Positions 6,125 through 64,000 of a stretch of DNA of 64,000 bases are shown here, one piece after another (position 1 is the stretch's first letter; each line of letters begins with the position of its first letter). The stretch spans positions 3,354 through 67,353 of the forward strand of contig JBHHYR010000001.1 in NCBI GenBank assembly GCA_046757585.1, given 5' to 3'. The translations under genes were made by a program, and so were the position numbers. This stretch comes from Candidatus Binatia bacterium. GTDB taxonomy: Bacteria > Desulfobacterota > Binatia > HRBIN30. The notes below the pieces were generated by a model. The model saw nothing but the letters and a program-made list of their open reading frames with translations, did no database searches and was not told the DNA's origin.

Positions 6125-6811
6125 TCAGTGCGTCGGAGCCAACAGCGCCACCCCGGCATTCACAGCCAAGGCGGTAGCCAAGAGGATGAGCCCGAGTGCG
6201 AAGCCAAAGGCAAACTCCCCCTTGCTGGTTTCAAGCGCGATGGCGGTGGTCATCGTGCGGGTGCTGCCGGCGATGTTTCCCCCCGCCATGAGCGCCACGC
6301 CGAGTTCGGAAATCAGCCGGCCGAACCCCGTACCGACGGCCGCGACAACGCCCCGGCGCATCTCAACCAACACGGTACACGCCGCTGCGAAACGCGAGGC
6401 GCCCAGTGTGAGCGCGGTTTCCTCGATGCGCGGGTCGGCACCGCTGATCACGGCCATGCTCAGCGCTGCCATCAACGGCGTCACCAATATGATCTCACCA
6501 AAGACCATCGCCGACGGCGTGTACAGCAGACCTAGTGGACCGAGGAGACCCCGCCGCGACAGCAGTGTGTAGGCAAGCAACCCGACCACCACCGTGGGTA
6601 GGGCCGTCGACGTTCTGAGGCACAGCTCAACCAACCGGCGGCCACGGAACTCGCGCACGGCGACCCAGAACCCGACGGGGACGCCCGCCACCGTCGCCAC
6701 GGCGATCGCCAGCATAGACACGCGCAGTGACACGCCGGCCGCCGACAGCACCTGCGGATCCAGCGTCAGCAGCAGACGCAGGGCCGACGCGAACGCCTCA
6801 CCGAACGACAT
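6125..6811 (-). CDS. tupB: ABC transporter permease (tungstate type)
   Basis: 228-aa polytopic membrane protein with a BPD-transporter EAA-like loop (IEETALTLGASRF), located between the binding-protein and ATPase genes. Confidence 0.8.
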   Translation of the reverse strand: MSFGEAFASALRLLLTLDPQVLSAAGVSLRVSMLAIAVATVAGVPVGFWVAVREFRGRRLVELCLRTSTALPTVVVGLLAYTLLSRRGLLGPLGLLYTPSAMVFGEIILVTPLMAALSMAVISGADPRIEETALTLGASRFAAACTVLVEMRRGVVAAVGTGFGRLISELGVALMAGGNIAGSTRTMTTAIALETSKGEFAFGFALGLILLATALAVNAGVALLAPTH

Positions 6812-6832
6812 GCCTACCCCTCCAGAAGCACG

Positions 6833-7699
6833 TCATGGCGACCGTGGCAGTGGGATCGCGGTGGGATGAAACAGGATCTGCCCCTCCCGTTCAAAGCTGC
6901 CAATGAGCCTCTGCCCTTGGGCCGAGGTGAACCATGCGATCAATTCCATCGCCTCGATGTACTTCACGTGTGGGTGGCGAGCCGGGTTCACGGCAATGAT
7001 GGTGTACGGATTGAACAGGAGGGGATCCCCCTGCGACACGATCACGAGCTCGTCTCGTTTCTTGTAGGCCAGAAACGTCCCGCGGTCAGCCAACGTGTAG
7101 GCCTGGCGTTCGTTGGCCATGAGCAACACCTGTCCCATGCCTTGGCCAGCAGAAACGTACCACGAGCCGCTTGGGGTGATGCCGGCGGCTTTCCAAATAG
7201 CCTTTTCCTTCTGGTGGGTGCCGGACTCGTCGCCCCGCGAGATGAACGTCGCCCGCGCCGTCGCGAGCCATTTGAAAGCGTCCACGGCCCCGGGCGCGCC
7301 ATGCAGGTGCGCCGGGTCGTTGGGTGGGCCGACGATGAGGAAATCATTGTACATGACGGACCGCCGATTGACGCCGAAGCCTGCTTGCACAAACGCCTGC
7401 TCCAGACCGGGGGCGTGGGAGAGCACGACGTCGACGTCCCCGTTCTCGGCAAGTTTCAACGCCTTGCCGCTGCCGACTGCAATGACGTCTACCTTCACAC
7501 GAAAGCGTTGCTCGAAGGGCGGCAGAACGACCGCCAAGAGGCCGGAATTTTCGGTGCTGGTGGTGGTTGAGAGCCGCAAGTGCTCCTGTCCGGGCGCCTG
7601 CGTTGCGGCGAGCAACGCACACGCCGCGGCACAGAATACGACGACCCCCCCCTTCTGCCACAACCGCCGCTGCACAACCTGTCCGACCCGACTCCCCAC
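6833..7699 (-). CDS. tupA: periplasmic tungstate-binding protein (TupA-like)
   Basis: Signal peptide, then LRLSTTTSTENSGLL (the TTTS anion-binding motif of TupA) and NDFLIVGPPNDPA. GTG start with a GGAGGG RBS. Confidence 0.75.
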   Translation of the reverse strand: MGSRVGQVVQRRLWQKGGVVVFCAAACALLAATQAPGQEHLRLSTTTSTENSGLLAVVLPPFEQRFRVKVDVIAVGSGKALKLAENGDVDVVLSHAPGLEQAFVQAGFGVNRRSVMYNDFLIVGPPNDPAHLHGAPGAVDAFKWLATARATFISRGDESGTHQKEKAIWKAAGITPSGSWYVSAGQGMGQVLLMANERQAYTLADRGTFLAYKKRDELVIVSQGDPLLFNPYTIIAVNPARHPHVKYIEAMELIAWFTSAQGQRLIGSFEREGQILFHPTAIPLPRSP

Positions 7700-10651: not shown

Positions 10652-11459
10652 ACTGGATGTCCCGCCGGCGCAGCAGTGCCGCTTGCTGGGGGGTGTGCAC
10701 GTAGCGGGCGACGAAATTGCCCACCGATCCGGCCGCGGCAGCAAAGTCGGGTGCAAACCAGTCGAAGATGCTTGACAACGCGACCTGGCCACTAGTGGGA
10801 TCAATGCGGTTGCGGCTGGGATCATTGATGAAGCGCCGCGCTTGCTCGTCCAGTTGCTGGTCGATCCGATTGCCGCGATACGCCTCGCGGCGGAGCTTGG
10901 GGCAGCTGGTGGCGCCGCACACGAGGGCGAAATGGATGCGAGGCTCATGGAACTGCCGGCGCAGTATCTTATTTTCGATCTCGTCCGGGGTACGCAGCCG
11001 CCCGGCCACTGGAAACGTGTACCAGCGGAACAGCCGTGCCCGCGACAGCAGCGTTTCGGGAGAAAACCCCTTCAGCACCGCAGCAACGATCCCAGCGTTG
11101 TAGGCGTTGATCCAGAGGGCCAGGCGGCCTGGCCGCGTCATCGCGGCTGGATTTGCCTGCGCGAGCTGGGCCATGTAGCGGTCCAGTTTCTGGCGCCCAT
11201 GCTCCGCCAGTTGCTCGTAGGCCACCTTGCCCTCGTCATCGACATATTGCCTCAGGATTTCATCCCACAACGCTTGATCGACCTGGGTCAGCGATGCTGC
11301 GGAATCGGGATTCGTCCGCCGCATTCCCAGGACGGCAGCGAGGAGCAGGCTGGCCAAGACGCCCGCGGCCCAACGCAGACGGCGACGCGTGACGCGCGTT
11401 GTCGTCGCTGCTTTTCCACCTTCTGCGGGGCAATGACCGTTTTCCAATTGCGTCATCAA
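10593..11459 (-). CDS. DUF547 domain protein
   Basis: INAYNAGIV...IHFALVCGATSCPKL is the conserved DUF547 core; an N-terminal signal anchor is present. Confidence 0.7.
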   Translation of the reverse strand: MMTQLENGHCPAEGGKAATTTRVTRRRLRWAAGVLASLLLAAVLGMRRTNPDSAASLTQVDQALWDEILRQYVDDEGKVAYEQLAEHGRQKLDRYMAQLAQANPAAMTRPGRLALWINAYNAGIVAAVLKGFSPETLLSRARLFRWYTFPVAGRLRTPDEIENKILRRQFHEPRIHFALVCGATSCPKLRREAYRGNRIDQQLDEQARRFINDPSRNRIDPTSGQVALSSIFDWFAPDFAAAAGSVGNFVARYVHTPQQAALLRRRDIQFKYLRYDWALNVQRGQRVS

Positions 11460-11741
11460 GGCTACCCGATCCCGAGAGCCTCCGTGCCTCTCGCGTGATC
11501 CCTTGCCAAATATGATGCTGGATGCGCTCCTGCGTTACAGCCCGTGCATGCCGGCAGCTGCGCAATGCGACTTGCGGAAGCACCGGGCACAGCCGGCCGC
11601 ATCCGCACGTGCAACGAGGCGGCTCGCCAGGGCATCAAACCCGCCGGCATGACGGGACGTCAGAGTGTACAAGCCGCGTGGCGTTTGGTGCCTTCTGGTA
11701 GGATGAAGGGCCAAGCCGCCGCCCAGGGGAGCAGACCGGGG

Positions 11742-12455
11742 ATGATGGTACGCGGCGCCTGGCTCCTCGCCACGCTCGCCGCTACCCTGTGTTTCCGGCC
11801 TGGACCAAGCGCGCTGGCTTCGGAACAGGGGCGCGTTCTGTTCCAGGAAGACTTTGAAGCAGGAATCAGCGACCGCTGGGTGGAGCGCGGGTTTCCGAGC
11901 ATCGAGCGGAAGAATACCTTCTCGCTGGCAACCGACCCAGTTGGAAATCACTACCTGAAGGTCGAAAGCGCGCAATCGGCCTCCGGCCGGGGCGTTCATC
12001 TGAGGTTTTCTCCGCGGGCGTGCTCCGATGTGAGTTGGCGCTGGATGGTGTCCCACGCAATCGCCACCGCTGATATCACGCGGCGCGAAGGTGACGACGG
12101 GGCTGCTAAGCTGTATGTGGTTTTCGATGGCCCATCGCTGTGGAACCCGTTCGACAAGCGCGTCATCGTCTATGTGTGGGACAACGCCGCACCAGTTGGT
12201 CGCGTGTTCCACAACGCCTGGCTCCCGGAGAAGGAGCGGATGCTCGTATTGGAGAGCGGAAACGAGAAGGCCGGCAGGTGGGTCACCGAACGTGTGCACT
12301 TGGCGCAAGATTTCGGTCGCGCGTTCCCGGGCGAAAGACCCGGCGAGGTCGAAGCACTGGCCTTCATGGCCGACACGGACAATACTGCCACACAGGTGTC
12401 AGCCGGCCTGGATGACTTGGTCATCCGTTGCAGGGCACCAGAGCAGAGGCACTAG
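11742..12455 (+). CDS. DUF3047 domain protein (secreted)
   Basis: Signal-like MMVRGAWLLATLAATL, then the conserved W..M..........DDGAAKLYVVF...RVIVYVWD pattern of DUF3047. The TAG stop is formed at the junction with the repeat element. Confidence 0.65.
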   Translation: MMVRGAWLLATLAATLCFRPGPSALASEQGRVLFQEDFEAGISDRWVERGFPSIERKNTFSLATDPVGNHYLKVESAQSASGRGVHLRFSPRACSDVSWRWMVSHAIATADITRREGDDGAAKLYVVFDGPSLWNPFDKRVIVYVWDNAAPVGRVFHNAWLPEKERMLVLESGNEKAGRWVTERVHLAQDFGRAFPGERPGEVEALAFMADTDNTATQVSAGLDDLVIRCRAPEQRH

Positions 12456-12620
12456 CAGTCCGTTGGAAAACAGGCGCCGTAGCGAGGGCGAGCGATTTTC
12501 CGTCAGATCAAGGCGCCGAACCGGAGGCAAATCCGATGATTTTGTTGAGGATTCGGCAACGCAGAGCTGGCGGAAAATAGCCGCCCGCAGTAGGAGTCCT
12601 GTTTTTCAACGGGCTGCTAG
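12452..12620 (+). mobile_element. MITE-like 169-bp element, copy 1 (about 23-bp terminal inverted repeats, TA flanks)
   Basis: It starts CTAGCAGTCCGTTGGAAAACAGG and ends CCTGTTTTTCAACGGGCTGCTAG. It matches 33300-33468 with only about 5 mismatches counted by eye, and its first 59 bp recur at 63942-64000. Confidence 0.75.
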
Positions 12621-12706
12621 GCGCGTGCTGAGCAAATCGCATCCGCTGCGGGCCCGTGGTCTGCCACGATCCCGATCCGTAATGGCAGCGTAGGGACCGC
12701 CGGGCC

Positions 12707-13384
12707 TCACGTGACCGGTTTGGTGCTCTGTTCCGACTGGAGCGTCTCACCGTTGGCGTTCTTCTCGCGTAGCAGATTGATCAGTCTCACTGGCCCGTGG
12801 TTGCTCAGGATTTCCTGAAACTGCGAGCGGTAGTTGGCAACCAAGCTCACGCCTTCGATGATGACGTCGATCGCGCGCCACCGACCGTTGCGCCTGCGCA
12901 GGCGGTAGTCAAGCGTGAAATCGCTAGCACCAGGCCGTATGACCTTGGTCTTCACCGTCCAGTCGCCGCCGGGCTCTTGACGGTCGCCAGTGACGACGAT
13001 GCGTTCATTGTTGTAGTTCTCGACGTTCTTGCCGTACGTCATCGACAGGAACTGCTTAAACTCCTCGACGAACCGCGCCTGCTGCGCAGGCGTCAACCGT
13101 TTCCAGTTCCGCGCGAGCACAAGTCGCGAAAGGGTTTTGAAGTCGAAGTACGGGTAGACGATTTCCTGGATCTTGTGGCGCTTCTGAGCCGCCGTCAGGT
13201 TCTGGTCAGCCAGTACCGTGATAACCCGATCGCTCGTGCGCTTGACCACCACAGTCGGGCTTTCTTCGGCAGGGACGCTGGCGGGGCGCAGGCAACAGAC
13301 GCCGAGCAACGCCAAGGCAACCAGCACAGCCGCGCCGCGGACCCGCCGCCTTTTCCGCAGTAGGTCGCCAGCTTGCGCGTTCAT
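12707..13384 (-). CDS. mlaC: MlaC/Ttg2D-family phospholipid-binding periplasmic protein
   Basis: Signal peptide plus YPYFDFKTLSRLVLARNWKRLTPAQQARFVEEFK..L..TYG and IDVIIEGVSLVANYRSQF, characteristic of the toluene-tolerance Ttg2D/MlaC family. Confidence 0.8.
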   Translation of the reverse strand: MNAQAGDLLRKRRRVRGAAVLVALALLGVCCLRPASVPAEESPTVVVKRTSDRVITVLADQNLTAAQKRHKIQEIVYPYFDFKTLSRLVLARNWKRLTPAQQARFVEEFKQFLSMTYGKNVENYNNERIVVTGDRQEPGGDWTVKTKVIRPGASDFTLDYRLRRRNGRWRAIDVIIEGVSLVANYRSQFQEILSNHGPVRLINLLREKNANGETLQSEQSTKPVT

Positions 13385-13590
13385 CTATGCTTTTTGATGC
13401 CCGACAGTCGCGAGTGTTACACGCGGCGGTGTCGTCGCTGCGTCGGATCTTAGGCACGGCACTCCGCGCCCGCTCCCATTGCAACACCCCAGCGCCCGGT
13501 GCATCGAAACGAGGAATGGCACAAGGAGGGTGTCACGATGGACGGGTCCAAGAGACGGGTGACGATCCTCGCGTACGGGTTGGTCTCCGC

Positions 13591-14559
13591 TCAACCCCCC
13601 CGTCTGCACGTGTGGGTCCAATCCAGCAGGACGGCCCCCGCGGCGAGCAGCCAGGCCCGGCGGGTGGACGGACCCGAGAGGACCCGCGCCGCGAGGGCGC
13701 GCCACGAGACGTCCGTTCCGGACCGCCTGCTCAGACGGATGCGGGCATCGATCCCGTGGTGGTCGGAATATGGCATGTCCCGCCACCAGTTACAGATGAG
13801 GTCCACCTCCGCCTCCGCACGCCATGCCGCATCGTGTCTGGCGAAGACGTAGTCTCTCCAGCGTCCGTGTTTGGCGTTGCGGTCGAAATGTGTCCCACAG
13901 TTGGGCAGCTGCGTGGTCAGATCCTGCCAGGCGAGGTGTTCGACCATCGTATCGTACAGCGGAGCAGCGGGACGGACATTGAAATCGCCCGCGATGAGCA
14001 CGGGCACGCCCGGCTCGACACTGGACGCCATGGTAGCAAGCTGTTGCACTTGGGCGCTCCGCACGGCGGCGTACGCGCCGCCCGACTGCAAGTGTGTGTT
14101 GAGAATGACGAGCGTCTGGCGCGAGGGGCGATGGCGCAGGTCGAGCCGTTGGATGCCCTTGTCCGCATACCCATCCCCGTGCCAGATGCGGTACTCGCAT
14201 TCCTCCGCGTCAAACTTCTCGAATCGCGCCTGCAGGACATCCCACTTGTGGGAAACGAACGCCAGCAGGCCGCCCTTGCGGATCCTCATGAAGAGCCCTG
14301 CGAGATCCACGAAGGGCAGAAACCACGGCGGAAAAGGTTTTGTGGGAATCCCGCCCACGCGCTGGTAGCGCGCACCCAGGGTGCGTTCAAGCAAGTCTGC
14401 ATCGGCCGGGTAGAAGATCTCTTGCAAAACCACAACATCAGGCAGCGGCTCGATATCGAGAATGCGCTGTGCCGCAGCCCGCATCCGGGGCTGGCGCAGC
14501 CGGGACGTGATCGGCGCGCCGTGCAGGTTCCAACAGATGAGCCGCACCCGGAGTGTCAT
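13591..14559 (-). CDS. endonuclease/exonuclease/phosphatase (EEP) family protein, sphingomyelinase/phosphodiesterase-like
   Basis: LICWNLHG...VVVLQEIF...LNTHL...IAGDFN...SDHHG are the canonical EEP catalytic blocks. The start could be 14559 (ATG) or 14595. Confidence 0.75.
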   Translation of the reverse strand: MTLRVRLICWNLHGAPITSRLRQPRMRAAAQRILDIEPLPDVVVLQEIFYPADADLLERTLGARYQRVGGIPTKPFPPWFLPFVDLAGLFMRIRKGGLLAFVSHKWDVLQARFEKFDAEECEYRIWHGDGYADKGIQRLDLRHRPSRQTLVILNTHLQSGGAYAAVRSAQVQQLATMASSVEPGVPVLIAGDFNVRPAAPLYDTMVEHLAWQDLTTQLPNCGTHFDRNAKHGRWRDYVFARHDAAWRAEAEVDLICNWWRDMPYSDHHGIDARIRLSRRSGTDVSWRALAARVLSGPSTRRAWLLAAGAVLLDWTHTCRRGG

Positions 14560-14916
14560 GATCGTCAGGCTACCGCCGGTGCCCCACAAATCCAATCCAT
14601 CCGCATGTGATCCGAGCTTGAGGGCGGGGGGACTGGAATTTGCGTTCGGTTTTTGCGATATGGGCGTTCCAGCAGCCAGACGGGAAGGTTCTTCAGATGA
14701 GCCCGGTTTCTAGTTCGAAAGGGGCAGGCCCCTTTCACCTTGAACGGAACGACCAAGCGGAAGCGAGACGGCGCGCGGCGTAGGCGCATAGCAGCTTCCG
14801 AGAGGTTGGGCGACACGCCACGACTGCACGATCATGATGGCCAACAGGAGGAAGGGGTCGACACCCCTATTGACAGAATGTGCGCAAGCTGGGTAACGAA
14901 AGCCGAGGGGGAGACT

Positions 14917-32511: not shown

Positions 32512-33288
32512 CTAGTACCGCTGGTGCTGCAGGCCGACCGCGCGGAGCAGGCGGTCGATCGGCCTGAACCGGTTGATCACGACAATGAACACCTTACGCA
32601 GGCGATCCTGCGGGCAATGGATTTCGCGCACGCCATGCCACGATTGCTGCGTACGCGCGAACAGTACACTGCGGTTGCCCAGCGCCTGCGTGGAAATCAC
32701 CTGCTGAAAGTCGTCGAACTCGGGGGCTGACGCACGCTTGAAACGTCCCCCATCGTCGAGCACCAATGTCTCTCCTCCCCAAGCGGGGTCCCAGTCCTCG
32801 GTGGTGTTGAAGTAGAAGATGTGCGAGCCGAGCTTGCGTTTGGCATCGCAGTGGGGCGAAACGGAACACCCGTTCGGCGTGTAGTGCCAATGAAACCCCA
32901 CATCGAGGGAGTCGACACGGAGCATCCGGCGTAAGAAGCCTTGGTATTTCTTGCCCCGCAACTCCGCGATGAATTCCTTCCAGGGGGACGCAACATCAAG
33001 ATCATCGCTGTAATCGAGGTAGTAGCGATCGTGGCTTTTCTGGCCGTGAGAACGTTTCTTGCCGAAGAATGGCTTGAAACGGGAGACATCGGGGAGTGTT
33101 TCGAGCAAGCGCCGGTACCCTATCGTCGTCAGAAGCCCCTCGGGGTTGATCCAAGGATAGGGCTTCTGCGACCGGAAAGCATCGGCGCTAATCGCTGCCA
33201 GACGGTCGAAATCCAAGTATGTCATGGCATCCCTGTTGCGCTGAAACGCTCTTTCATGAACCAGATCGACCCCAAGTATAGAAGACAT
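32512..33288 (-). CDS. 2OG-Fe(II) oxygenase-like protein
   Basis: Candidate facial triad: H-x-D (SPHCDAK) and a distal His (QSWHGV), in a beta-rich context. Start at ATG 33288, because the upstream part of the six-frame ORF runs into the repeat element. Confidence 0.55.
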   Translation of the reverse strand: MSSILGVDLVHERAFQRNRDAMTYLDFDRLAAISADAFRSQKPYPWINPEGLLTTIGYRRLLETLPDVSRFKPFFGKKRSHGQKSHDRYYLDYSDDLDVASPWKEFIAELRGKKYQGFLRRMLRVDSLDVGFHWHYTPNGCSVSPHCDAKRKLGSHIFYFNTTEDWDPAWGGETLVLDDGGRFKRASAPEFDDFQQVISTQALGNRSVLFARTQQSWHGVREIHCPQDRLRKVFIVVINRFRPIDRLLRAVGLQHQRY

Positions 33289-33299
33289 GGCGGGCAAGT

Positions 33300-33468
33300 C
33301 TAGCAGTCCGTCGAAAAACAGGCGCCGTAGCGAGGGCGAGCGATTTTCCGTCAGATCAAGGCGCCGAACCGGAGGCAAATCCGATGATTTTGTTGAGGAT
33401 TCGGCAACGCAGAGCTGGCGGAAAATAGCCGCCCGCAGTAGGGGCCCTGTTTTTCAACGGGCTGCTGG
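33300..33468 (+). mobile_element. MITE-like 169-bp element, copy 2
   Basis: Near-identical to 12452-12620, in the same orientation. It fills the gap between the ELM1-family gene stop (33484) and the oxygenase start (33288). Confidence 0.75.
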
Positions 33469-33483
33469 CCCGTGGTGGACGCG

Positions 33484-34638
33484 CTAATCAGCCAGCAGGG
33501 CACGAACGCGGGCGACCGCGCGCGCCATGTCGTCCAGAGGCTGCCGCCGCACGGTGTCTGCGCTCTCGCCCAGCCGTGTCACCAAGCCGCGTACCTTGAG
33601 CGCCCGGTGGTACGCGTCAAAGTCACGTCGCGGCTTGATCAGCCCCAGATCTACCCGTCGATCATACCGGCCGGCCGGCCCGTCCGCGGGCGCGGCCGCG
33701 CCAGCCGCGTCGCTACGGTCCACCTGCAGCTGGCCGCCAGGGCGCAGAAAGGTGCGCACCGCGAATCGCCAGCCGGCCCGTCGCGGCCATTCGAACAACG
33801 CCACTGGCTTGGCAGTCGCGCACGCTTCCACGAGCATCGACGCGCTGTCCGCGGTGACAATGAAGCGATCCGCTAGCGCGAGAAACGCTAGATAGGGATT
33901 CTCTGGGTCATGCGGGTGCCAGCGGTGGCAGTACGCGGGACATGTGACGGCGGCCAACAGCGCGTCGGCGGCGGCCACCGGCGTGCGCGGGCTGGTGCTG
34001 AGCAGGAGCGATCCACCGCTGGCGCGCACCTGGGCGCTGGCCTCGCGAGCGAGACGTGCCGCGGTGACCGGATCGAGCACGTACGAGGAGCTGTTTCCAC
34101 CTACGAAGAGAGCCGTGTACGGCCGCACGAACCCCTCGAGCCGTGATGCCCAGCGAGACGCGGCCTCGGCCAGCCGCTCAGGGGCAAGGCGATTCAACGG
34201 TGCCGTCAGATGCAACACGTTCGGACGCTGCGGCAAACAATACTGGGGCAGCGTGATGACGAGATCGAATAGGGCCAGCGGCGCCTGGGTATGCAGGAGA
34301 TGCACGAGCCGGGTGTGGCCCGCCGACTGCTTCTTGATCCATCGCGCTACCGGTACGCTGCGCCGCGAGGCGGCGATCACCAGGTCCGGCCAGGGCGGCC
34401 TCAGCGGACTCGATCTACGGTGGTTCAGGCTCAGCAGCGAAGCGCCAAGCAACAAGTTGGGGCAACGGTTCAATGGGTTGTGCACCAGCTGTTTGGTCTC
34501 GTAGGGCCATCCCAGGGCGGCTGCCAGGCTCAACATCTGTCCGTTTCCGCCGGTTCCCTTGCCCAAGAGAACCCACACCGTCGGTGGGGATGCCCGGCAT
34601 GCGGTCTCCGTTAGCGGAGCACCTTCTTCAGAATCCAT
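33484..34638 (-). CDS. ELM1 (mitochondrial-fission ELM1 / DUF1022) family protein, GT-B-like
   Basis: VWVLLGKGTGGNGQMLSLAAALGWPYETK...PWPDLVIAASRRSVPVARWIKKQS is the family N-terminal pattern. An alternative GTG start at 34578 would remove the 28-nt overlap with gpmA. Confidence 0.72.
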   Translation of the reverse strand: MDSEEGAPLTETACRASPPTVWVLLGKGTGGNGQMLSLAAALGWPYETKQLVHNPLNRCPNLLLGASLLSLNHRRSSPLRPPWPDLVIAASRRSVPVARWIKKQSAGHTRLVHLLHTQAPLALFDLVITLPQYCLPQRPNVLHLTAPLNRLAPERLAEAASRWASRLEGFVRPYTALFVGGNSSSYVLDPVTAARLAREASAQVRASGGSLLLSTSPRTPVAAADALLAAVTCPAYCHRWHPHDPENPYLAFLALADRFIVTADSASMLVEACATAKPVALFEWPRRAGWRFAVRTFLRPGGQLQVDRSDAAGAAAPADGPAGRYDRRVDLGLIKPRRDFDAYHRALKVRGLVTRLGESADTVRRQPLDDMARAVARVRALLAD

Positions 34639-60660: not shown

Positions 60661-61821
60661 ATGACGCAACTGAATATCGAAGAGGTCGTGGGGAAGCGAT
60701 ACACAGAGGGGGCACTGGCCCGCCAGGAGACCCTGTGCTGCCCGACCGACTACGACGACCGCTACCTGGCGGTCCTGCCGGGGGAAATCATCGAGCGGGA
60801 CTACGGCTGTGGAGATCCGTCGGCCTACGTACGAGAAGGCGAAACGGTACTCGATTTGGGCTCGGGCAGTGGCAAGACCTGTTACATTGCGGCGCAGGTC
60901 GTCGGGCCATCGGGCCACGTGATCGGAATCGACATGAACGACGACATGCTAGCCCTTGCCCGCCGGCATCAATCCGAGATCGCGCGTCGTCTGGGGTACA
61001 ACAACGTGAGTTTCCATCGTGGCAAGATCCAGGACCTGCGGACGGACCTCGACGCCGTCGACGCCTACTTACAGCGGCACCCCGTCGCATCGGCGCGAGA
61101 TCTGGCGGCTTTCGAGCGCTTCCGCCGGGAACAGCAGTCGACGCACCCGCTGGTGGCCGATAATGCGGTTGATGTGGTCGTGTCCAACTGTGTTCTCAAC
61201 CTTGTCTCTGACGACGACAAGCAGGTGTTGTTCGCCGAATTGTTTCGGGTGCTCCGCCCCGGGGGCCGCGCGGTGATTTGCGATATCGTGTCGGACGAGT
61301 GCGTTCCCCAGAGCCTCAAAGAAGACCCGGATCTATGGTCCGGTTGCATCGCCGGAGCGTTTCAGGAAGGCGCCTTCCTCGACGCCTTCGCGACAGCGGG
61401 CTTCTATGGCATCGAGTTGCTCAAGCGGGACGTGCAGCCGTGGCGGACCGTTGCCGGCATTGAGTTCCGTTCTGTCGCCGTCCAAGCATGGAAGGGAAAG
61501 CAGGGTGAATGCTGGGACTACAATCAAGCAGTCATCTACCGGGGACCGTGGAGCGAGGTGCGAGACGACGACGGGCATACGCTACGCCGGGGTGTCCCGA
61601 TGGCCGTCTGTGAGAAGACCTTCCGTCTTTACACGCGCGAGCCCTACGCACGGGGCATCATCCCGGTCGCACCACGCGTCGCAGTCGACCCCGCCACGGC
61701 CCGGCCCTTCGACTGTACCCGCGAGGCGGTCCGCCACCCCCGTGAGACCAAAGGTCGAGACTACCAGGCAACGAGCGCCGCCCCGGCCACGTGCTGCGGG
61801 CCGGCGGGCGACTGCTGCTGA
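60661..61821 (+). CDS. arsM: arsenite S-adenosylmethionine methyltransferase-like protein
   Basis: SAM motif VLDLGSGSGKTC and the ArsM-type conserved cysteines: ETLCCPTDYD, DYGCGDP, VVSNCVLNLV and LWSGCIAGAF. Confidence 0.8.
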   Translation: MTQLNIEEVVGKRYTEGALARQETLCCPTDYDDRYLAVLPGEIIERDYGCGDPSAYVREGETVLDLGSGSGKTCYIAAQVVGPSGHVIGIDMNDDMLALARRHQSEIARRLGYNNVSFHRGKIQDLRTDLDAVDAYLQRHPVASARDLAAFERFRREQQSTHPLVADNAVDVVVSNCVLNLVSDDDKQVLFAELFRVLRPGGRAVICDIVSDECVPQSLKEDPDLWSGCIAGAFQEGAFLDAFATAGFYGIELLKRDVQPWRTVAGIEFRSVAVQAWKGKQGECWDYNQAVIYRGPWSEVRDDDGHTLRRGVPMAVCEKTFRLYTREPYARGIIPVAPRVAVDPATARPFDCTREAVRHPRETKGRDYQATSAAPATCCGPAGDCC

Positions 61822-62843: not shown

Positions 62844-63956
62844 GTGGTAACGACCCTCGTCTTCTTGGTGCTCGCCGCCCTGTTCGTGGCCTACGCCAAC
62901 GGTGCCAACGATAACTTCAAGGGCGTCGCGACGCTGTACGGCAGTGGCACCCTCGAGTACCGCGGCGCGCTTCTCCTGGCGACCGTCGCAACGTTTCTCG
63001 GATCGCTGGCCGCGCTTTACGTCGGCGGGAGCCTGATCAGCAGCTTCAGCGGGAGGGGCCTCGTCCCGGACACGGTTGTGGCCGACCCCGCCTTCTTGAG
63101 CGCCGTCGGCTTCGGCGGAGCCTTGACGGTTCTCCTCGCCACGCGGCTCGGTTTCCCCGTTTCAACCACACACGCACTCGTCGGTGCACTCATCGGCGCT
63201 GGGATCATCGAAGCGGGCGCGGCCGTGAATCTCGGGCGCCTAAGCAGTATGTTCCTCATGCCCCTACTCATCAGCCCGATCATTGCGTCAGCACTGGCAA
63301 GCGCCCAGTATCCAACCTTCAGCGCCTTACGGAGGAGGCTCGGCATCACGCGAGAGACCTGCGTCTGTGCCGGCGAAGAACTCGTCCCAGTCGCTACCCT
63401 CGGCGGGACGGCCACCGCCGCGCGGGTCACAACGCTCACCCTCGATACCACGCCGAAATGTATCGAGCGTTACCAAGGTGCGGTCGTTGGCGTCGACGCC
63501 ACCACGCTCCTCAACGGCCTGCACTACGCTTCTGCAGCCGCCGTGAGCTTCGCCCGGGGTGTGAATGATACGCCCAAGATCGTCGCGTTGCTCCTGGCCG
63601 CACATCTGGTGGCGCCACGGCATGCGTTCGTTCTGGTCGGGATCGCCATCGCCCTTGGAGGGCTACTCGGGGCCCGGCGCGTGGCGGAGACGATGAGCCA
63701 CAAGATCACACCCATGAACCCCGGTCAGGCCTTCACCGGCAACCTCGTCACCGCCCTGTTGGTGCTGTTCGCCAGCCGGCTGGGCCTTCCGGTCTCCACC
63801 ACGCACGTTGCCTGTGGCGCGCTCGGAGGGATCGGGGCCGTGAACCGCCAGGCCCACTGGAGCACCATCGGCCAGATCCTCCTCGCGTGGGTGACCACCC
63901 TGCCGCTGGCGGCAGCGCTCGCGGCCGCCACGGCGCTCGTCCTAGCAGTCCGTTGA
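62844..63956 (+). CDS. PiT-family inorganic phosphate (and arsenate) transporter
   Basis: Duplicated PHO4 signature GANDNFKGVATLYG / GVNDTPKIVA and GFPVSTTHALVGALIG / GLPVSTTHVACGALGG. GTG start at 62844. The last four codons and the stop lie inside repeat copy 3. Confidence 0.85.
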   Translation: MVTTLVFLVLAALFVAYANGANDNFKGVATLYGSGTLEYRGALLLATVATFLGSLAALYVGGSLISSFSGRGLVPDTVVADPAFLSAVGFGGALTVLLATRLGFPVSTTHALVGALIGAGIIEAGAAVNLGRLSSMFLMPLLISPIIASALASAQYPTFSALRRRLGITRETCVCAGEELVPVATLGGTATAARVTTLTLDTTPKCIERYQGAVVGVDATTLLNGLHYASAAAVSFARGVNDTPKIVALLLAAHLVAPRHAFVLVGIAIALGGLLGARRVAETMSHKITPMNPGQAFTGNLVTALLVLFASRLGLPVSTTHVACGALGGIGAVNRQAHWSTIGQILLAWVTTLPLAAALAAATALVLAVR

Positions 63957-64000
63957 AAAACAGGCACCGTAGCGAGGGTAAGCGATTTTGCGTCAGATCA
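63942..64000 (+). mobile_element. MITE-like element, copy 3 (truncated by window end)
   Basis: CTAGCAGTCCGTTGAAAAACAGGCACCGTAGCGAGGGTAAGCGATTTTGCGTCAGATCA aligns with the first 59 bp of copies 1 and 2, with about 4-5 mismatches. Confidence 0.7.

What the first reader, a model, noticed from the sequence alone, without database searches (positions are those of the whole stretch)
12452..12620. Three-copy 169-bp element with 23-bp terminal inverted repeats and TA flanks (Correia-/MITE-like)
Seen in the sequence:
- 12452-12620 and 33300-33468 are near-identical, with about 5 mismatches.
- 63942-64000 matches their first 59 bp.
- All three copies are in the same orientation.
- The ends are CTAGCAGTCCGTTGAAAAACAGG and CCTGTTTTTCAACGGGCTGCTAG. 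They are reverse complements with one mismatch in copy 1 (a G-U-compatible change in the left arm).
- The inverted symmetry continues imperfectly inward, so the whole unit can fold into a long hairpin.
- If the element proper starts at GCAG and ends at CTGC, it is flanked by TA on both sides in copy 1. Copy 2 has TA/TG, and copy 3 has TA on the visible side.

Established knowledge: a TA target duplication plus TIRs is typical of IS630/Tc1-mariner-derived MITEs, such as the Neisseria Correia elements.

The element contains no credible ORF; the identical peptides in the ORF track are an artefact. I could only scan by eye, so further degenerate copies may exist in the window.
Basis: seen in the sequence. 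Interest (0 to 1): 0.7.

Follow-up and report, generated by a model that had tools for sequence, protein, structure and literature searches.

The report
Hairpin MITE of an IS1182-like transposon
The repeat is a real, recently mobile, non-coding miniature transposon (MITE) of Candidatus Binatia bacteria. It borrows the ends of a 1.5-kb IS1182/IS5-type insertion sequence and duplicates four bases (CTAG-like) on insertion, so it is a new family of a well-known kind, not a mariner/IS630-type element.

Summary
There are two full copies (12452-12620 and 33300-33468, 5 mismatches) and one copy cut by the window end (63942-64000). All are in the same orientation, and each folds into one long hairpin.

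The MITE call is right, but the TA duplication and the IS630/mariner link are not.
- **Target duplication:** across 77 independent copies from MAGs and metagenomes the flanks are 4-bp direct repeats of YTAR: CTAG 31, TTAG 6, TTAA 5, CTAA 3. The element proper is 161 nt (CAGTCC...GGGCTG).
- **Mobility:** a contig from a public sequencing run carries the same strain with the copy-1 site empty.
- **Parent element:** full-length 1.47-1.5-kb insertion sequences have the same termini (CAGCCCGTTGAAAAACAGG) and CTAG flanks. They encode a 455-468-aa DUF772+DDE transposase whose best match is the IS1182 family.
- **Insertion sites:** copies often land in TAG/TAA stop codons. Copy 1 sits on one, and copy 3 rewrites the last four codons of a phosphate-transporter gene.

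Two things are less ordinary.
- **Conserved hairpin:** 98% of cells are paired and 27 pairs show compensatory changes. G:T wobbles outnumber A:C about 11 to 1, so one particular strand seems to need to fold.
- **Empty-site mismatch:** the empty site reads GTAG, while the filled site has CTAG on both sides.

This is a new member of a known kind, of modest interest.

The parts
12452..12455 (+). Copy 1, left 4-bp target duplication CTAG. Its TAG is the stop codon of the DUF3047 gene (11565-12455).
   Evidence: The empty allele L100 has a single GTAG here.
12456..12616 (+). Copy 1, the element proper (161 nt, CAGTCC...GGGCTG). It is one long imperfect hairpin with no conserved ORF.
12456..12474 (+). 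Copy 1, left terminal inverted repeat CAGTCCGTTGGAAAACAGG. This is the presumed transposase-binding end, and it matches the termini of the parent IS.
12598..12616 (-). Copy 1, right terminal inverted repeat (reverse complement CAGCCCGTTGAAAAACAGG). It is identical to the transposase-proximal end of the IS in L163.
12617..12620 (+). Copy 1, right 4-bp target duplication CTAG
33300..33303 (+). Copy 2, left 4-bp duplication CTAG
33304..33464 (+). Copy 2, element proper (161 nt). It lies between two minus-strand ORFs (33484-34638 and 32512-33225). The same filled site is seen in Logan contig L101.
33465..33468 (+). Copy 2, right 4-bp duplication, decayed to CTGG
63942..63945 (+). Copy 3, left 4-bp flank CTAG
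63946..64000 (+). Copy 3, first 55 nt of the element, cut by the window end. It supplies part of the last four codons (LAVR) and the TGA stop (63954-63956) of the PiT/anion permease gene 62844-63956.
   Evidence: P0001 is 100% identical and ends ..ALVLAVR

Best explanation
The element is a non-autonomous miniature inverted-repeat transposable element of Candidatus Binatia and related uncultured bacteria. It is 161 nt long and is flanked by a 4-bp target-site duplication of consensus YTAR, most often CTAG.

Its 19-nt termini are the same as those of a family of 1.47-1.5-kb insertion sequences. These encode a single DUF772+DDE transposase of the IS1182/IS5 superfamily.

The inferred mechanism is as follows. 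The transposase, supplied in trans, binds the two termini, excises or copies the element, and joins it to a target cut with a 4-nt stagger at YTAR. Repair of the stagger produces the direct repeat.

In this 65% G+C genome YTAR is scarce inside genes and common at TAG/TAA stop codons. Copies therefore accumulate just at gene ends, usually leaving the gene intact because the stop codon is duplicated.

- **Shown:** repetition, inverted ends, the 4-bp direct repeats, an empty allele, and full-length elements with the same ends and flanks.
- **Inferred:** trans-mobilisation by that transposase, the chemistry of the reaction, and the reason the whole element is kept as a strand-specific hairpin.
For: - **Copies.** Three copies lie in the window, against 0 expected by chance. 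nhmmer finds 145 family hits, 84 of them full-length, in 216 fetched loci from at least 8 MAGs and several JGI/ENA metagenomes. The window itself comes from an NCBI 'Candidatus Binatia bacterium' MAG contig of 85,068 nt.
- **Target duplication.** Of 77 independent copies, 45 have identical 4-mers on both sides: CTAG 31, TTAG 6, TTAA 5, CTAA 3. Left and right positions 1 and 4 are associated as direct repeats, with p = 1e-7 and 2e-10.
- **Mobility.** Logan contig L100 (run SRR29324609) is identical to window 11452-14900 over 3,284 nt, except that 165 nt (element plus one 4-mer) are absent and one base differs. The same run holds the filled copy-2 site at 100% identity. No insertion site is shared between different MAGs.
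- **Parent element.** L163 positions 126-1606 read CTAG|CAGCCCGTTGAAGAAG...CCTGTTTTTCAACGGGCTG|CTAG, with one 467-aa ORF. That ORF matches DUF772 (2e-17) and DDE_Tnp_1_6/DDE_Tnp_1. Its best NCBIfam match is the IS1182 family (8e-46), followed by IS5.
- **Further full-length copies.** L104, L135, L217 and L218-L227 show the termini CAGCCCGTTGAA. All carry CTAG-type 4-mers, except that L217's distal end was not found and L226-L227 stop before theirs.
- **Distant relative.** A 49%-identical transposase gene on Sphingobium indicum plasmid pCHQ1 has the same layout: CTAA|CAGGCCGTTGACGAAG...CGCGCTG|CTAG.
- **Literature.** Published IS1182-family members make 4-bp duplications or target 4-bp palindromes (PMC3281130, ISPse1, DR 4; PMC8027508, ISPsy36, GGCC).
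- **Stop codons.** In 14 of 37 gene-end contexts the stop codon lies inside the duplicated 4-mer.
Against: - The transposase best match to IS1182 scores 157 bits, below NCBIfam's curated cut-off of 270. The IS-family assignment is therefore at superfamily level only.
- No full-length IS was found in the window. Its presence in this MAG could not be checked.
- Only the first 19 nt are shared between the MITE and the IS ends. The internal 120 nt have an unknown origin.
- The one clean empty site reads GTAG, while the filled site has CTAG on both sides. A plain duplication does not predict this.
- A transposase that acts on double-stranded DNA does not explain why internal pairing is conserved, nor why G:T is tolerated and A:C is not.
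- Some mismatched flank pairs, and the flanks of the full-length ISs, may be assembly chimeras formed across near-identical repeats.
Confidence: 0.85

Rival explanations
1. One reading: a Correia-like MITE that derives from, and is moved by, an IS630/Tc1-mariner transposase and duplicates the dinucleotide TA.
For: TA is present next to most ends. When the two flanking 4-mers differ, the bases next to the element are nearly always G (left) and C (right), as if the element were GCAG...CTGC sitting between TA repeats. IS630 is known, from memory, to prefer CTAG and to duplicate TA.
Against: The outer base on the left co-varies with the inner base on the right, and vice versa: TTAG/TTAG 6, CTAA/CTAA 3, p = 1e-7 and 2e-10. 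This cannot happen if only TA is duplicated. The insertion sequences with the same termini encode DUF772+DDE IS1182/IS5-type transposases, not IS630.
Confidence: 0.03
2. The element is primarily a structured RNA, for example a bidirectional terminator, an RNase III-processed 3' UTR hairpin or a small RNA. In this reading its spread is secondary to that host function.
For: - 98.1% of cells are paired and 27 of 60 pairs show compensatory changes.
- G:T cells number 329 against 30 A:C. Fifteen columns have at least 3 G:T, against 2 with at least 3 A:C. Rare new variants are symmetric (28 vs 22).
- The apical loops are conserved in sequence.
- The stem is flanked by A5 on the 5' side and T5 on the 3' side, like a two-way terminator (seen in the sequence; inference).
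- Copies sit at gene ends.
Against: - Orientation relative to neighbouring genes is random: left 21 vs 21, right 25 vs 18. Convergent, divergent and tandem contexts all occur.
- There is no Rfam match, even at E up to 5-10.
- The simple scan finds no promoter-like or terminator-like site.
- No insertion site is conserved between genomes.
- The position at gene ends is explained by the YTAR target.
Confidence: 0.08
3. A palindromic element moved as single-stranded DNA by an HUH/Y1 enzyme, as for REPIN/RAYT or IS200/IS605-derived elements.
For: The strand-specific wobble pattern implies that one particular strand folds. The whole element is a hairpin.
Against: - Those systems make no target duplication and have no terminal inverted repeats shared with a DDE-type insertion sequence. 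Here both are present.
- The filled site cannot be derived from the empty site by a pure insertion next to a fixed tetranucleotide.
- The 19-nt terminus is not itself a REP-like palindrome.
- Neighbouring copies are not significantly co-oriented: 8 same vs 5 different.
Confidence: 0.03

Closest known systems
IS1182-family insertion sequences (e.g. ISPse1, ISPsy36) and their non-autonomous derivatives
   Same: - Full-length partners are 1.47-1.5 kb with one ORF of 455-468 aa carrying DUF772 plus a DDE domain.
- The best NCBIfam match is the IS1182 family.
- They make a 4-bp duplication at a near-palindromic tetranucleotide, as reported for ISPse1 (DR 4, PMC3281130) and ISPsy36 (GGCC, PMC8027508).
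   Different: - The transposase scores below the curated IS1182 cut-off (157 vs 270 bits).
- It is at most 51% identical to any plasmid-borne annotated relative.
- The target is YTAR rather than GGCC.
- No MITE of this family with this sequence was found in the searched literature.
IS5 group of the IS5 family (E. coli IS5/InsH)
   Same: Both have a 4-bp duplication with a YTAR/CTAG-like target (from memory of ISfinder). Both have the DUF772 N-terminal domain. The second-best NCBIfam match is IS5 (1e-21).
   Different: IS5 transposases are about 330 aa and IS5 ends begin GGAAGG. Here the transposase is about 460 aa and the ends begin CAGCCC.
Neisseria Correia elements (CREE/NEMIS)
   Same: Both are about 100-160 nt, non-coding, high-copy elements with terminal inverted repeats. 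Both are foldable as a hairpin and are often found at gene ends.
   Different: Correia elements have a TA duplication, unrelated 26-bp termini and no known transposase, and they are restricted to Neisseria. There is no sequence similarity. Here the duplication is 4 bp and the parent IS is identified.
Enterobacterial ERIC/IRU and pneumococcal RUP/BOX elements
   Same: All are small intergenic imperfect palindromes whose secondary structure is conserved and which are thought to act at the RNA level when transcribed.
   Different: The sequences and hosts are different. RUP is linked to IS630-Spn1 (TA), and ERIC has no known transposase. Here orientation relative to genes is random, and the partner is an IS1182/IS5-type element.
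piggyBac-type cut-and-paste (eukaryotic; mechanistic analogy only)
   Same: Both use a 4-bp palindromic target (TTAA there, CTAG here). In piggyBac the excised element carries 4-nt 5' flaps from the donor site, and these are ligated into the new site. This could explain why the flanks here can differ from the target (GTAG in the empty site, CTAG/CTAG in the filled site).
   Different: There is no evidence that this transposase uses that chemistry, and it does not belong to the same protein family. The idea rests on a single empty-site comparison.

Membership tests
MITE (miniature inverted-repeat transposable element) | Small size (well under 500 bp) and no coding capacity | tested here: met
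   The element is 161 nt, with variants of about 191 and 215 nt. ORFs through it differ in frame between subfamilies, and the start codon in the apical loop is not conserved.
MITE (miniature inverted-repeat transposable element) | Terminal inverted repeats | tested here: met
   The 19-nt ends are CAGYCCGTTGAAAAACAGG and its complement. They give 5 hits in the window against 0 expected and are conserved in 65 aligned copies.
MITE (miniature inverted-repeat transposable element) | Target-site duplication of fixed length | tested here: met
   The duplication is 4 bp, YTAR. Of 77 copies, 45 have identical 4-mers, and the direct-repeat association has p = 1e-7 and 2e-10.
MITE (miniature inverted-repeat transposable element) | Many dispersed copies, and presence/absence polymorphism | tested here: met
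   There are 84 full-length copies at different sites. An empty allele, L100, exists in the same strain, and no site is shared between MAGs.
MITE (miniature inverted-repeat transposable element) | An autonomous element with matching ends and the same duplication | tested here: met
   L163, L104, L135, L217 and L218-L227 meet this.
IS630/Tc1-mariner-derived MITE | 2-bp TA duplication | tested here: not met
   Four bases are duplicated. The non-palindromic pairs TTAG/TTAG and CTAA/CTAA occur 9 times, against 1 inverted-type pair.
IS630/Tc1-mariner-derived MITE | An IS630-family transposase gene bounded by the same inverted repeats | tested here: not met
   The elements bounded by these repeats encode DUF772+DDE_Tnp_1/1_6 proteins, which match IS1182/IS5 models.
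IS1182 family (parent element) | Transposase reaches the curated family score | tested here: inconclusive
   NF033551 is the best hit (8e-46, 157 bits) but lies below the cut-off of 270. IS5 models score lower.
IS1182 family (parent element) | Size about 1.3-1.95 kb, single ORF, inverted repeats, 4-bp duplication | tested here: met
   The elements are 1,473-1,481 bp with one ORF of 455-468 aa, a 12-19-nt inverted repeat and CTAG flanks. The literature values come from PMC3281130.
Correia element | Characteristic 26-bp Neisseria termini and TA flanks | tested here: not met
   The termini are unrelated, judged from my memory of the Correia terminus (TATAGNGGATTAACAAAAATCAGGAC), not from a search. 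The hosts are Binatia-like MAGs, and the duplication is 4 bp.
Known structured RNA family (Rfam) | Match to a curated covariance model | tested here: not met
   There is no hit at gathering score in the whole window. Relaxed thresholds on two subfamilies give only noise at E of 2.6 or more, or nothing.
REPIN / IS200-IS605-type single-strand elements | No target duplication; insertion next to a fixed short motif; association with a Y1/HUH enzyme | tested here: not met
   A duplication is present. The filled site is not a pure insertion into the empty site. The associated enzyme is a DDE transposase.

The most novel reading that the evidence does not exclude
The element may be more than a passive passenger of its transposase. 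Its whole-length hairpin and its conserved apical loops are maintained on one specific strand: G:T is tolerated and A:C is purged. This would mean that a single-stranded form has a function. That form could be an RNA made from the element, or a folded DNA strand used during transposition.

A related possibility concerns the mechanism. Like piggyBac, the element may carry 4-nt donor flaps (CTAG) that are ligated into imperfectly matching targets. That would explain the GTAG empty site next to a CTAG/CTAG filled site. It would also be a mechanism not yet described for bacterial IS1182/IS5-type elements.
Probability: 0.2. Interest if true: 0.55.

Novelty: new member of a known kind. Interest (0 to 1): 0.3.

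Why it matters
**What the result gives**
- It is a clean, well-delimited MITE family, with its parent insertion sequence, for Candidatus Binatia, a phylum with no cultured representatives and almost no described mobile elements.
- The family is active now: one insertion is polymorphic within a single natural population. It is dense, at about one copy per 20-30 kb in the window and in long contigs.
- It breaks short-read assemblies. Contigs L059 and L101 end inside copies.
- It alters gene ends. The PiT permease in this window has an element-encoded C-terminus.

**Practical uses**
- The profile can be used to mask repeats and to type strains in Binatia MAGs.
- Annotators should not call the short peptides translated from the element.

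**Scientific questions**
- The strand-specific conservation of the hairpin and the mismatch between empty site and duplication are small, testable puzzles about how IS1182/IS5-type elements move their miniature derivatives.

Tried and rejected
- **Rfam.** The whole window at gathering score, and two subfamilies at relaxed E-values, gave nothing credible.
- **Plasmid collection with the 169-nt unit.** No match.
- **Literature search for the terminal sequence.** No paper found.
- **TA-only duplication model.** Rejected by the co-variation of the outer and inner flank bases.
- **Stem-extension model** (the 4-mers as part of the inverted repeat). Only a weak association (p = 0.05 and 0.007), explained by palindromic targets.
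- **IS200/IS605-type pure insertion.** Impossible given the empty and filled sequences.
- **Simple deletion of the filled allele to give the empty one.** No pair of direct repeats yields GTAG (worked through by hand).
- **Conserved small ORF behind the GGAGG in the apex.** The start codon and frame differ between subfamilies, and the G/A of GGAGG pairs within a stem.
- **Internal promoter or canonical terminator.** None found by the simple scan.
- **Orientation bias relative to neighbouring genes.** None.
- **Co-orientation of neighbouring copies**, as a proxy for a replication-strand bias. Eight pairs were the same and 5 different within 100 kb, which is not significant.
- **Orthologous filled sites shared between MAGs.** None. 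The one long inter-locus match is a conserved thiolase gene at a different distance from the element.
- **Ancestral state of the G/C base at the copy-1 site.** The closest other DUF3047 homologue is only 71% identical and has a different tail.
- **Exact-protein look-ups** for genes 33484-34638, 32512-33225 and 60661-61821, for P0001, and for the filled-allele DUF3047 protein. None is on record.
- **Second empty-site comparison.** Copy L167:4062 lies inside another repeat whose uninserted paralogues read CCAG. It is uninformative because the paralogues are only about 90% identical.

Full report
**1. The observation**

- Window 12452-12620 and 33300-33468 differ at 5 of 169 positions.
- Window 63942-64000 repeats the first 59 nt and is cut by the window end.
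- The 23-nt terminus occurs five times with up to 2 mismatches, against 0.00 expected in 100 shuffles. Three hits are left ends on the + strand and two are right ends on the - strand.
- The unit folds into one long hairpin. The energy is -98.4 kcal/mol (z = -10) for the + strand and -84.2 (z = -8) for the - strand.
- A family profile finds no other copy in the window.
- One detail needs correcting. Copy 1 has GTTGGAAAAC in its left end, so its arms differ at two positions, both G:T-compatible.

**2. Source and distribution**

The window comes from an NCBI MAG named Candidatus Binatia bacterium, on a contig of 85,068 nt. Two window proteins are 100% identical to its records.

A scan of species-representative genomes with the terminal 19-mer found full-length relatives at 73-89% identity in eight MAGs. 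Their labels were Deltaproteobacteria OFTM157, Thermodesulfobacteriota JTS-RE355, RBC016, MFD05684.bin.1.163, Candidatus Binatia ffbe4ed3, Co_bin.149, Polyangia Co_bin.340 and Acidobacteriota Maj_2_bin.65.

A metagenome scan added 115 loci, many of them from one JGI sample. In all, nhmmer finds 145 non-overlapping family hits, of which 84 are full-length. The size classes are 161, about 191 and about 215 nt. There is no match in Rfam, in plasmids or in the searched literature.

**3. Ends and target duplication**

I anchored each copy on the conserved termini and tabulated the four bases outside them.
- In 77 independent copies the pairs are CTAG/CTAG 31, TTAG/TTAG 6, TTAA/TTAA 5 and CTAA/CTAA 3, so 45 pairs are identical.
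- The non-palindromic cases decide between models. There are nine direct pairs and only one inverted-type pair (TTAG/CTAA).
- Left and right position 1 are associated with p = 1e-7, and position 4 with p = 2e-10. The associations expected if the bases merely extended the stem are weak (p = 0.05 and 0.007).

The duplication is therefore 4 bp, YTAR, and the element proper is CAGTCC...GGGCTG (161 nt).

**4. Mobility**

An exact-protein look-up with the MlaC gene next to copy 1 returned a Logan contig from run SRR29324609 (L100, 3,284 nt). It is identical to window 11452-14900, except that 165 nt are absent and one base differs. The absent 165 nt are the element plus one 4-mer.

The same run contains the copy-2 site in the filled state, at 100% identity. 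That contig ends 44 nt into the element. The insertion at the copy-1 site is therefore polymorphic within one strain-level population. No insertion site is shared between different MAGs.

**5. The parent element**

I searched the fetched loci for YTAR-flanked inverted repeats 0.6-3.5 kb apart. This found L163 positions 126-1606: CTAG|CAGCCCGTTGAAGAAGTGATGG ... CGACCTGTTTTTCAACGGGCTG|CTAG. It spans 1,473 bp and has one 467-aa ORF.
- The protein has DUF772 (2e-17) and DDE_Tnp_1_6/DDE_Tnp_1.
- Its best NCBIfam match is the IS1182 family (8e-46, 157 bits, below the cut-off of 270), followed by IS5.
- Related transposase genes bounded by the same termini occur in L104, L135 and L102 (partial).
- They also occur in loci fetched through homologues: L217 from an NCBI assembly, and L218-L227 from ten JGI samples. 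In L218-L225 a perfect 12-nt repeat, CAGCCCGTTGAA, and CTAG-type 4-mers lie on both sides, next to at least six different flanks. L217's far end was not found, and L226-L227 stop before theirs.
- A 49%-identical relative on Sphingobium indicum plasmid pCHQ1 has the same layout.
- Published IS1182-family members give 4-bp duplications or target 4-bp palindromes (PMC3281130, PMC8027508).
- The MITE shares only its first 19 nt with the IS ends.

**6. Where it lands**

Orientation relative to neighbouring genes is random: left 21 vs 21, right 25 vs 18. Tandem, convergent and divergent contexts all occur.

In 14 of 37 cases where a gene ends at the element, its TAG or TAA stop codon lies inside the duplicated 4-mer. 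Copy 1 is such a case.

CTAG is depleted in the window: 37 are observed, against 208 expected from composition and 61 from a Markov model. Stop codons therefore provide a good share of harmless targets.

Copy 3 lies out of frame with the PiT gene. It supplies the gene's last four codons and its stop codon.

**7. The hairpin**

On 65 distinct copies RNAalifold predicts one hairpin of 60 pairs.
- 98.1% of cells form standard pairs, against 89.9% in shuffles and about 40% with slid partners.
- 27 pairs show changes on both sides, including GC to CG transversions.
- On the strand as drawn, G:T cells number 329 and A:C cells 30.
- Fifteen columns have at least three G:T, against two columns with at least three A:C.
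- Rare variants, which are presumably recent mutations, are symmetric (28 vs 22).

New mutations therefore hit both strands alike, but the variants that propagate keep the + strand foldable. The apical internal loops (GGAGG, UUGAGGAUU, CGCAACGCAG) are conserved in sequence.

A transposase that acts on duplex DNA does not predict this. Three explanations remain possible, and none was tested:
- a folded single strand used during transposition;
- an RNA role;
- in part, template-switch correction of quasi-palindromes, which would give compensatory changes but not the strand asymmetry.

Neighbouring copies are not significantly co-oriented (8 vs 5).

**8. An unexplained detail**

The empty allele reads GGCA-GTAG-GCG. 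The filled allele reads GGCA-CTAG-[161 nt]-CTAG-GCG. This is the only other difference in 3,284 nt, and a plain duplication of GTAG would give GTAG twice.

The possible explanations are:
- a chance SNP in the target (roughly 4 in 3,284);
- donor-derived 4-nt flaps ligated into the new site, as in piggyBac;
- correction of G:G mismatches at the base of the hairpin;
- k-mer error correction toward the abundant repeat during MAG assembly.

Across copies, when the two 4-mers differ, the bases next to the element are nearly always G and C. This fits the flap idea, but it could also reflect decay or chimeric assemblies.

The filled-allele protein is on record only in the MAG, and the empty-allele protein only in Logan. 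The closest other homologue is too distant to polarise the change.

**9. Verdict**

The repeat is a genuine, currently mobile MITE. Its partner is an IS1182/IS5-superfamily insertion sequence and its target duplication is 4-bp YTAR. It is a new family of a known kind. The interest is modest, raised slightly by the strand-specific conservation of the hairpin and by the flank anomaly.

Noticed in passing
L017:3800-3840 (-), L081:2540-2580, L069:600-630: In other taxa (two 'Deltaproteobacteria' MAGs and a gammaproteobacterial MAG) a 22-nt mini-hairpin occurs: CAGCC-TGTTTTTCAACG-GGCTG. In L017 it is flanked by TTAA on both sides, and in L017 and L081 it is preceded by a conserved GGCGGCACGTCC(A/C)TG(C/T)GCCG. 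These may be ultra-short remnants of the same IS family's ends.
   Followed up: partly
L019:1637-1702 (-): A derivative of about 60 nt made only of the two termini joined by a short loop: TTAA|CAGTCCACTGAAAAACAGGCGCGTACTTGCAGCGCGAGTCCTGTTTTTCAACGGGCTG|TTGA.
   Followed up: no
L110:124-404; L149:7893-8107; OFTM157 loci L008, L014, L037, L057, L079: Longer subfamilies (about 191 and 215 nt) carry a ~30-nt GC-rich insert (CCGGCATGCCACCCGAAGCCTTGGCGAAGG) at the apex. In L110 this unit is repeated four times in tandem, forming a minisatellite inside the MITE.
   Followed up: partly
L167:4020-4330 versus L141:7668-7815 and L141:1105-1226: One copy is inserted inside a different repeat family (GTCACCCCGGCGAAAGCCGGGGT..CTGGATCCCGGCTTTCGCCGGGATGACG, two small hairpins). 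The uninserted paralogues read CCAG where the filled copy has CTAG...CTGG.
   Followed up: partly
L126:503-1731, L173:307-1504, L183:2222-3505: Three other ~1.2-kb units are bounded by inverted repeats that differ from the MITE's (TGCTTTGTCAAG.., TAGGGTGTAAC.., AGAATGTCTAC..). They are flanked by CTAG or TTAG. In L126 and L173 they abut a copy of the MITE and share its 4-mer. They are probably other YTAR-targeting insertion sequences; their ORFs were not examined.
   Followed up: no
window 62844-63956: The PiT/anion permease gene reads 13 nt into copy 3. Its annotated product (P0001) ends ..ALVLAVR, with the last four residues and the stop codon coming from the element. Homologues end differently.
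   Followed up: yes
L059:2186-2240; L101:1-44; window 63942-64000: Short-read contigs repeatedly stop inside the element: L059 ends 55 nt in, and L101 starts 44 nt in. The family therefore fragments assemblies of these genomes.
   Followed up: partly
window, whole: CTAG is strongly under-represented: 37 observed, 208 expected from base composition and 61 from a second-order model. TTAA (4), TTAG (18) and CTAA (17) are also rare. Four of the 37 CTAG sites belong to the three element copies.
   Followed up: partly
L067:6384-6550 and 6620-7015: A copy whose left end is disrupted lies next to an ORF whose C-terminus (..LLRRAFELDILACPDCGDRLRLVATI..) resembles IS91-type transposases. This resemblance is from memory and was not tested.
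   Followed up: no
L228 (Sphingobium indicum UT26S plasmid pCHQ1, 125353-127409): A transposase gene annotated only as 'transposase' is bounded by CTAA|CAGGCCGTTGACGAAGTCGG and CCGACTTCGTCACCGCGCTG|CTAG. The CAG...GTTGA terminus and the YTAR flank are thus shared across a wide clade of these DUF772+DDE elements.
   Followed up: partly
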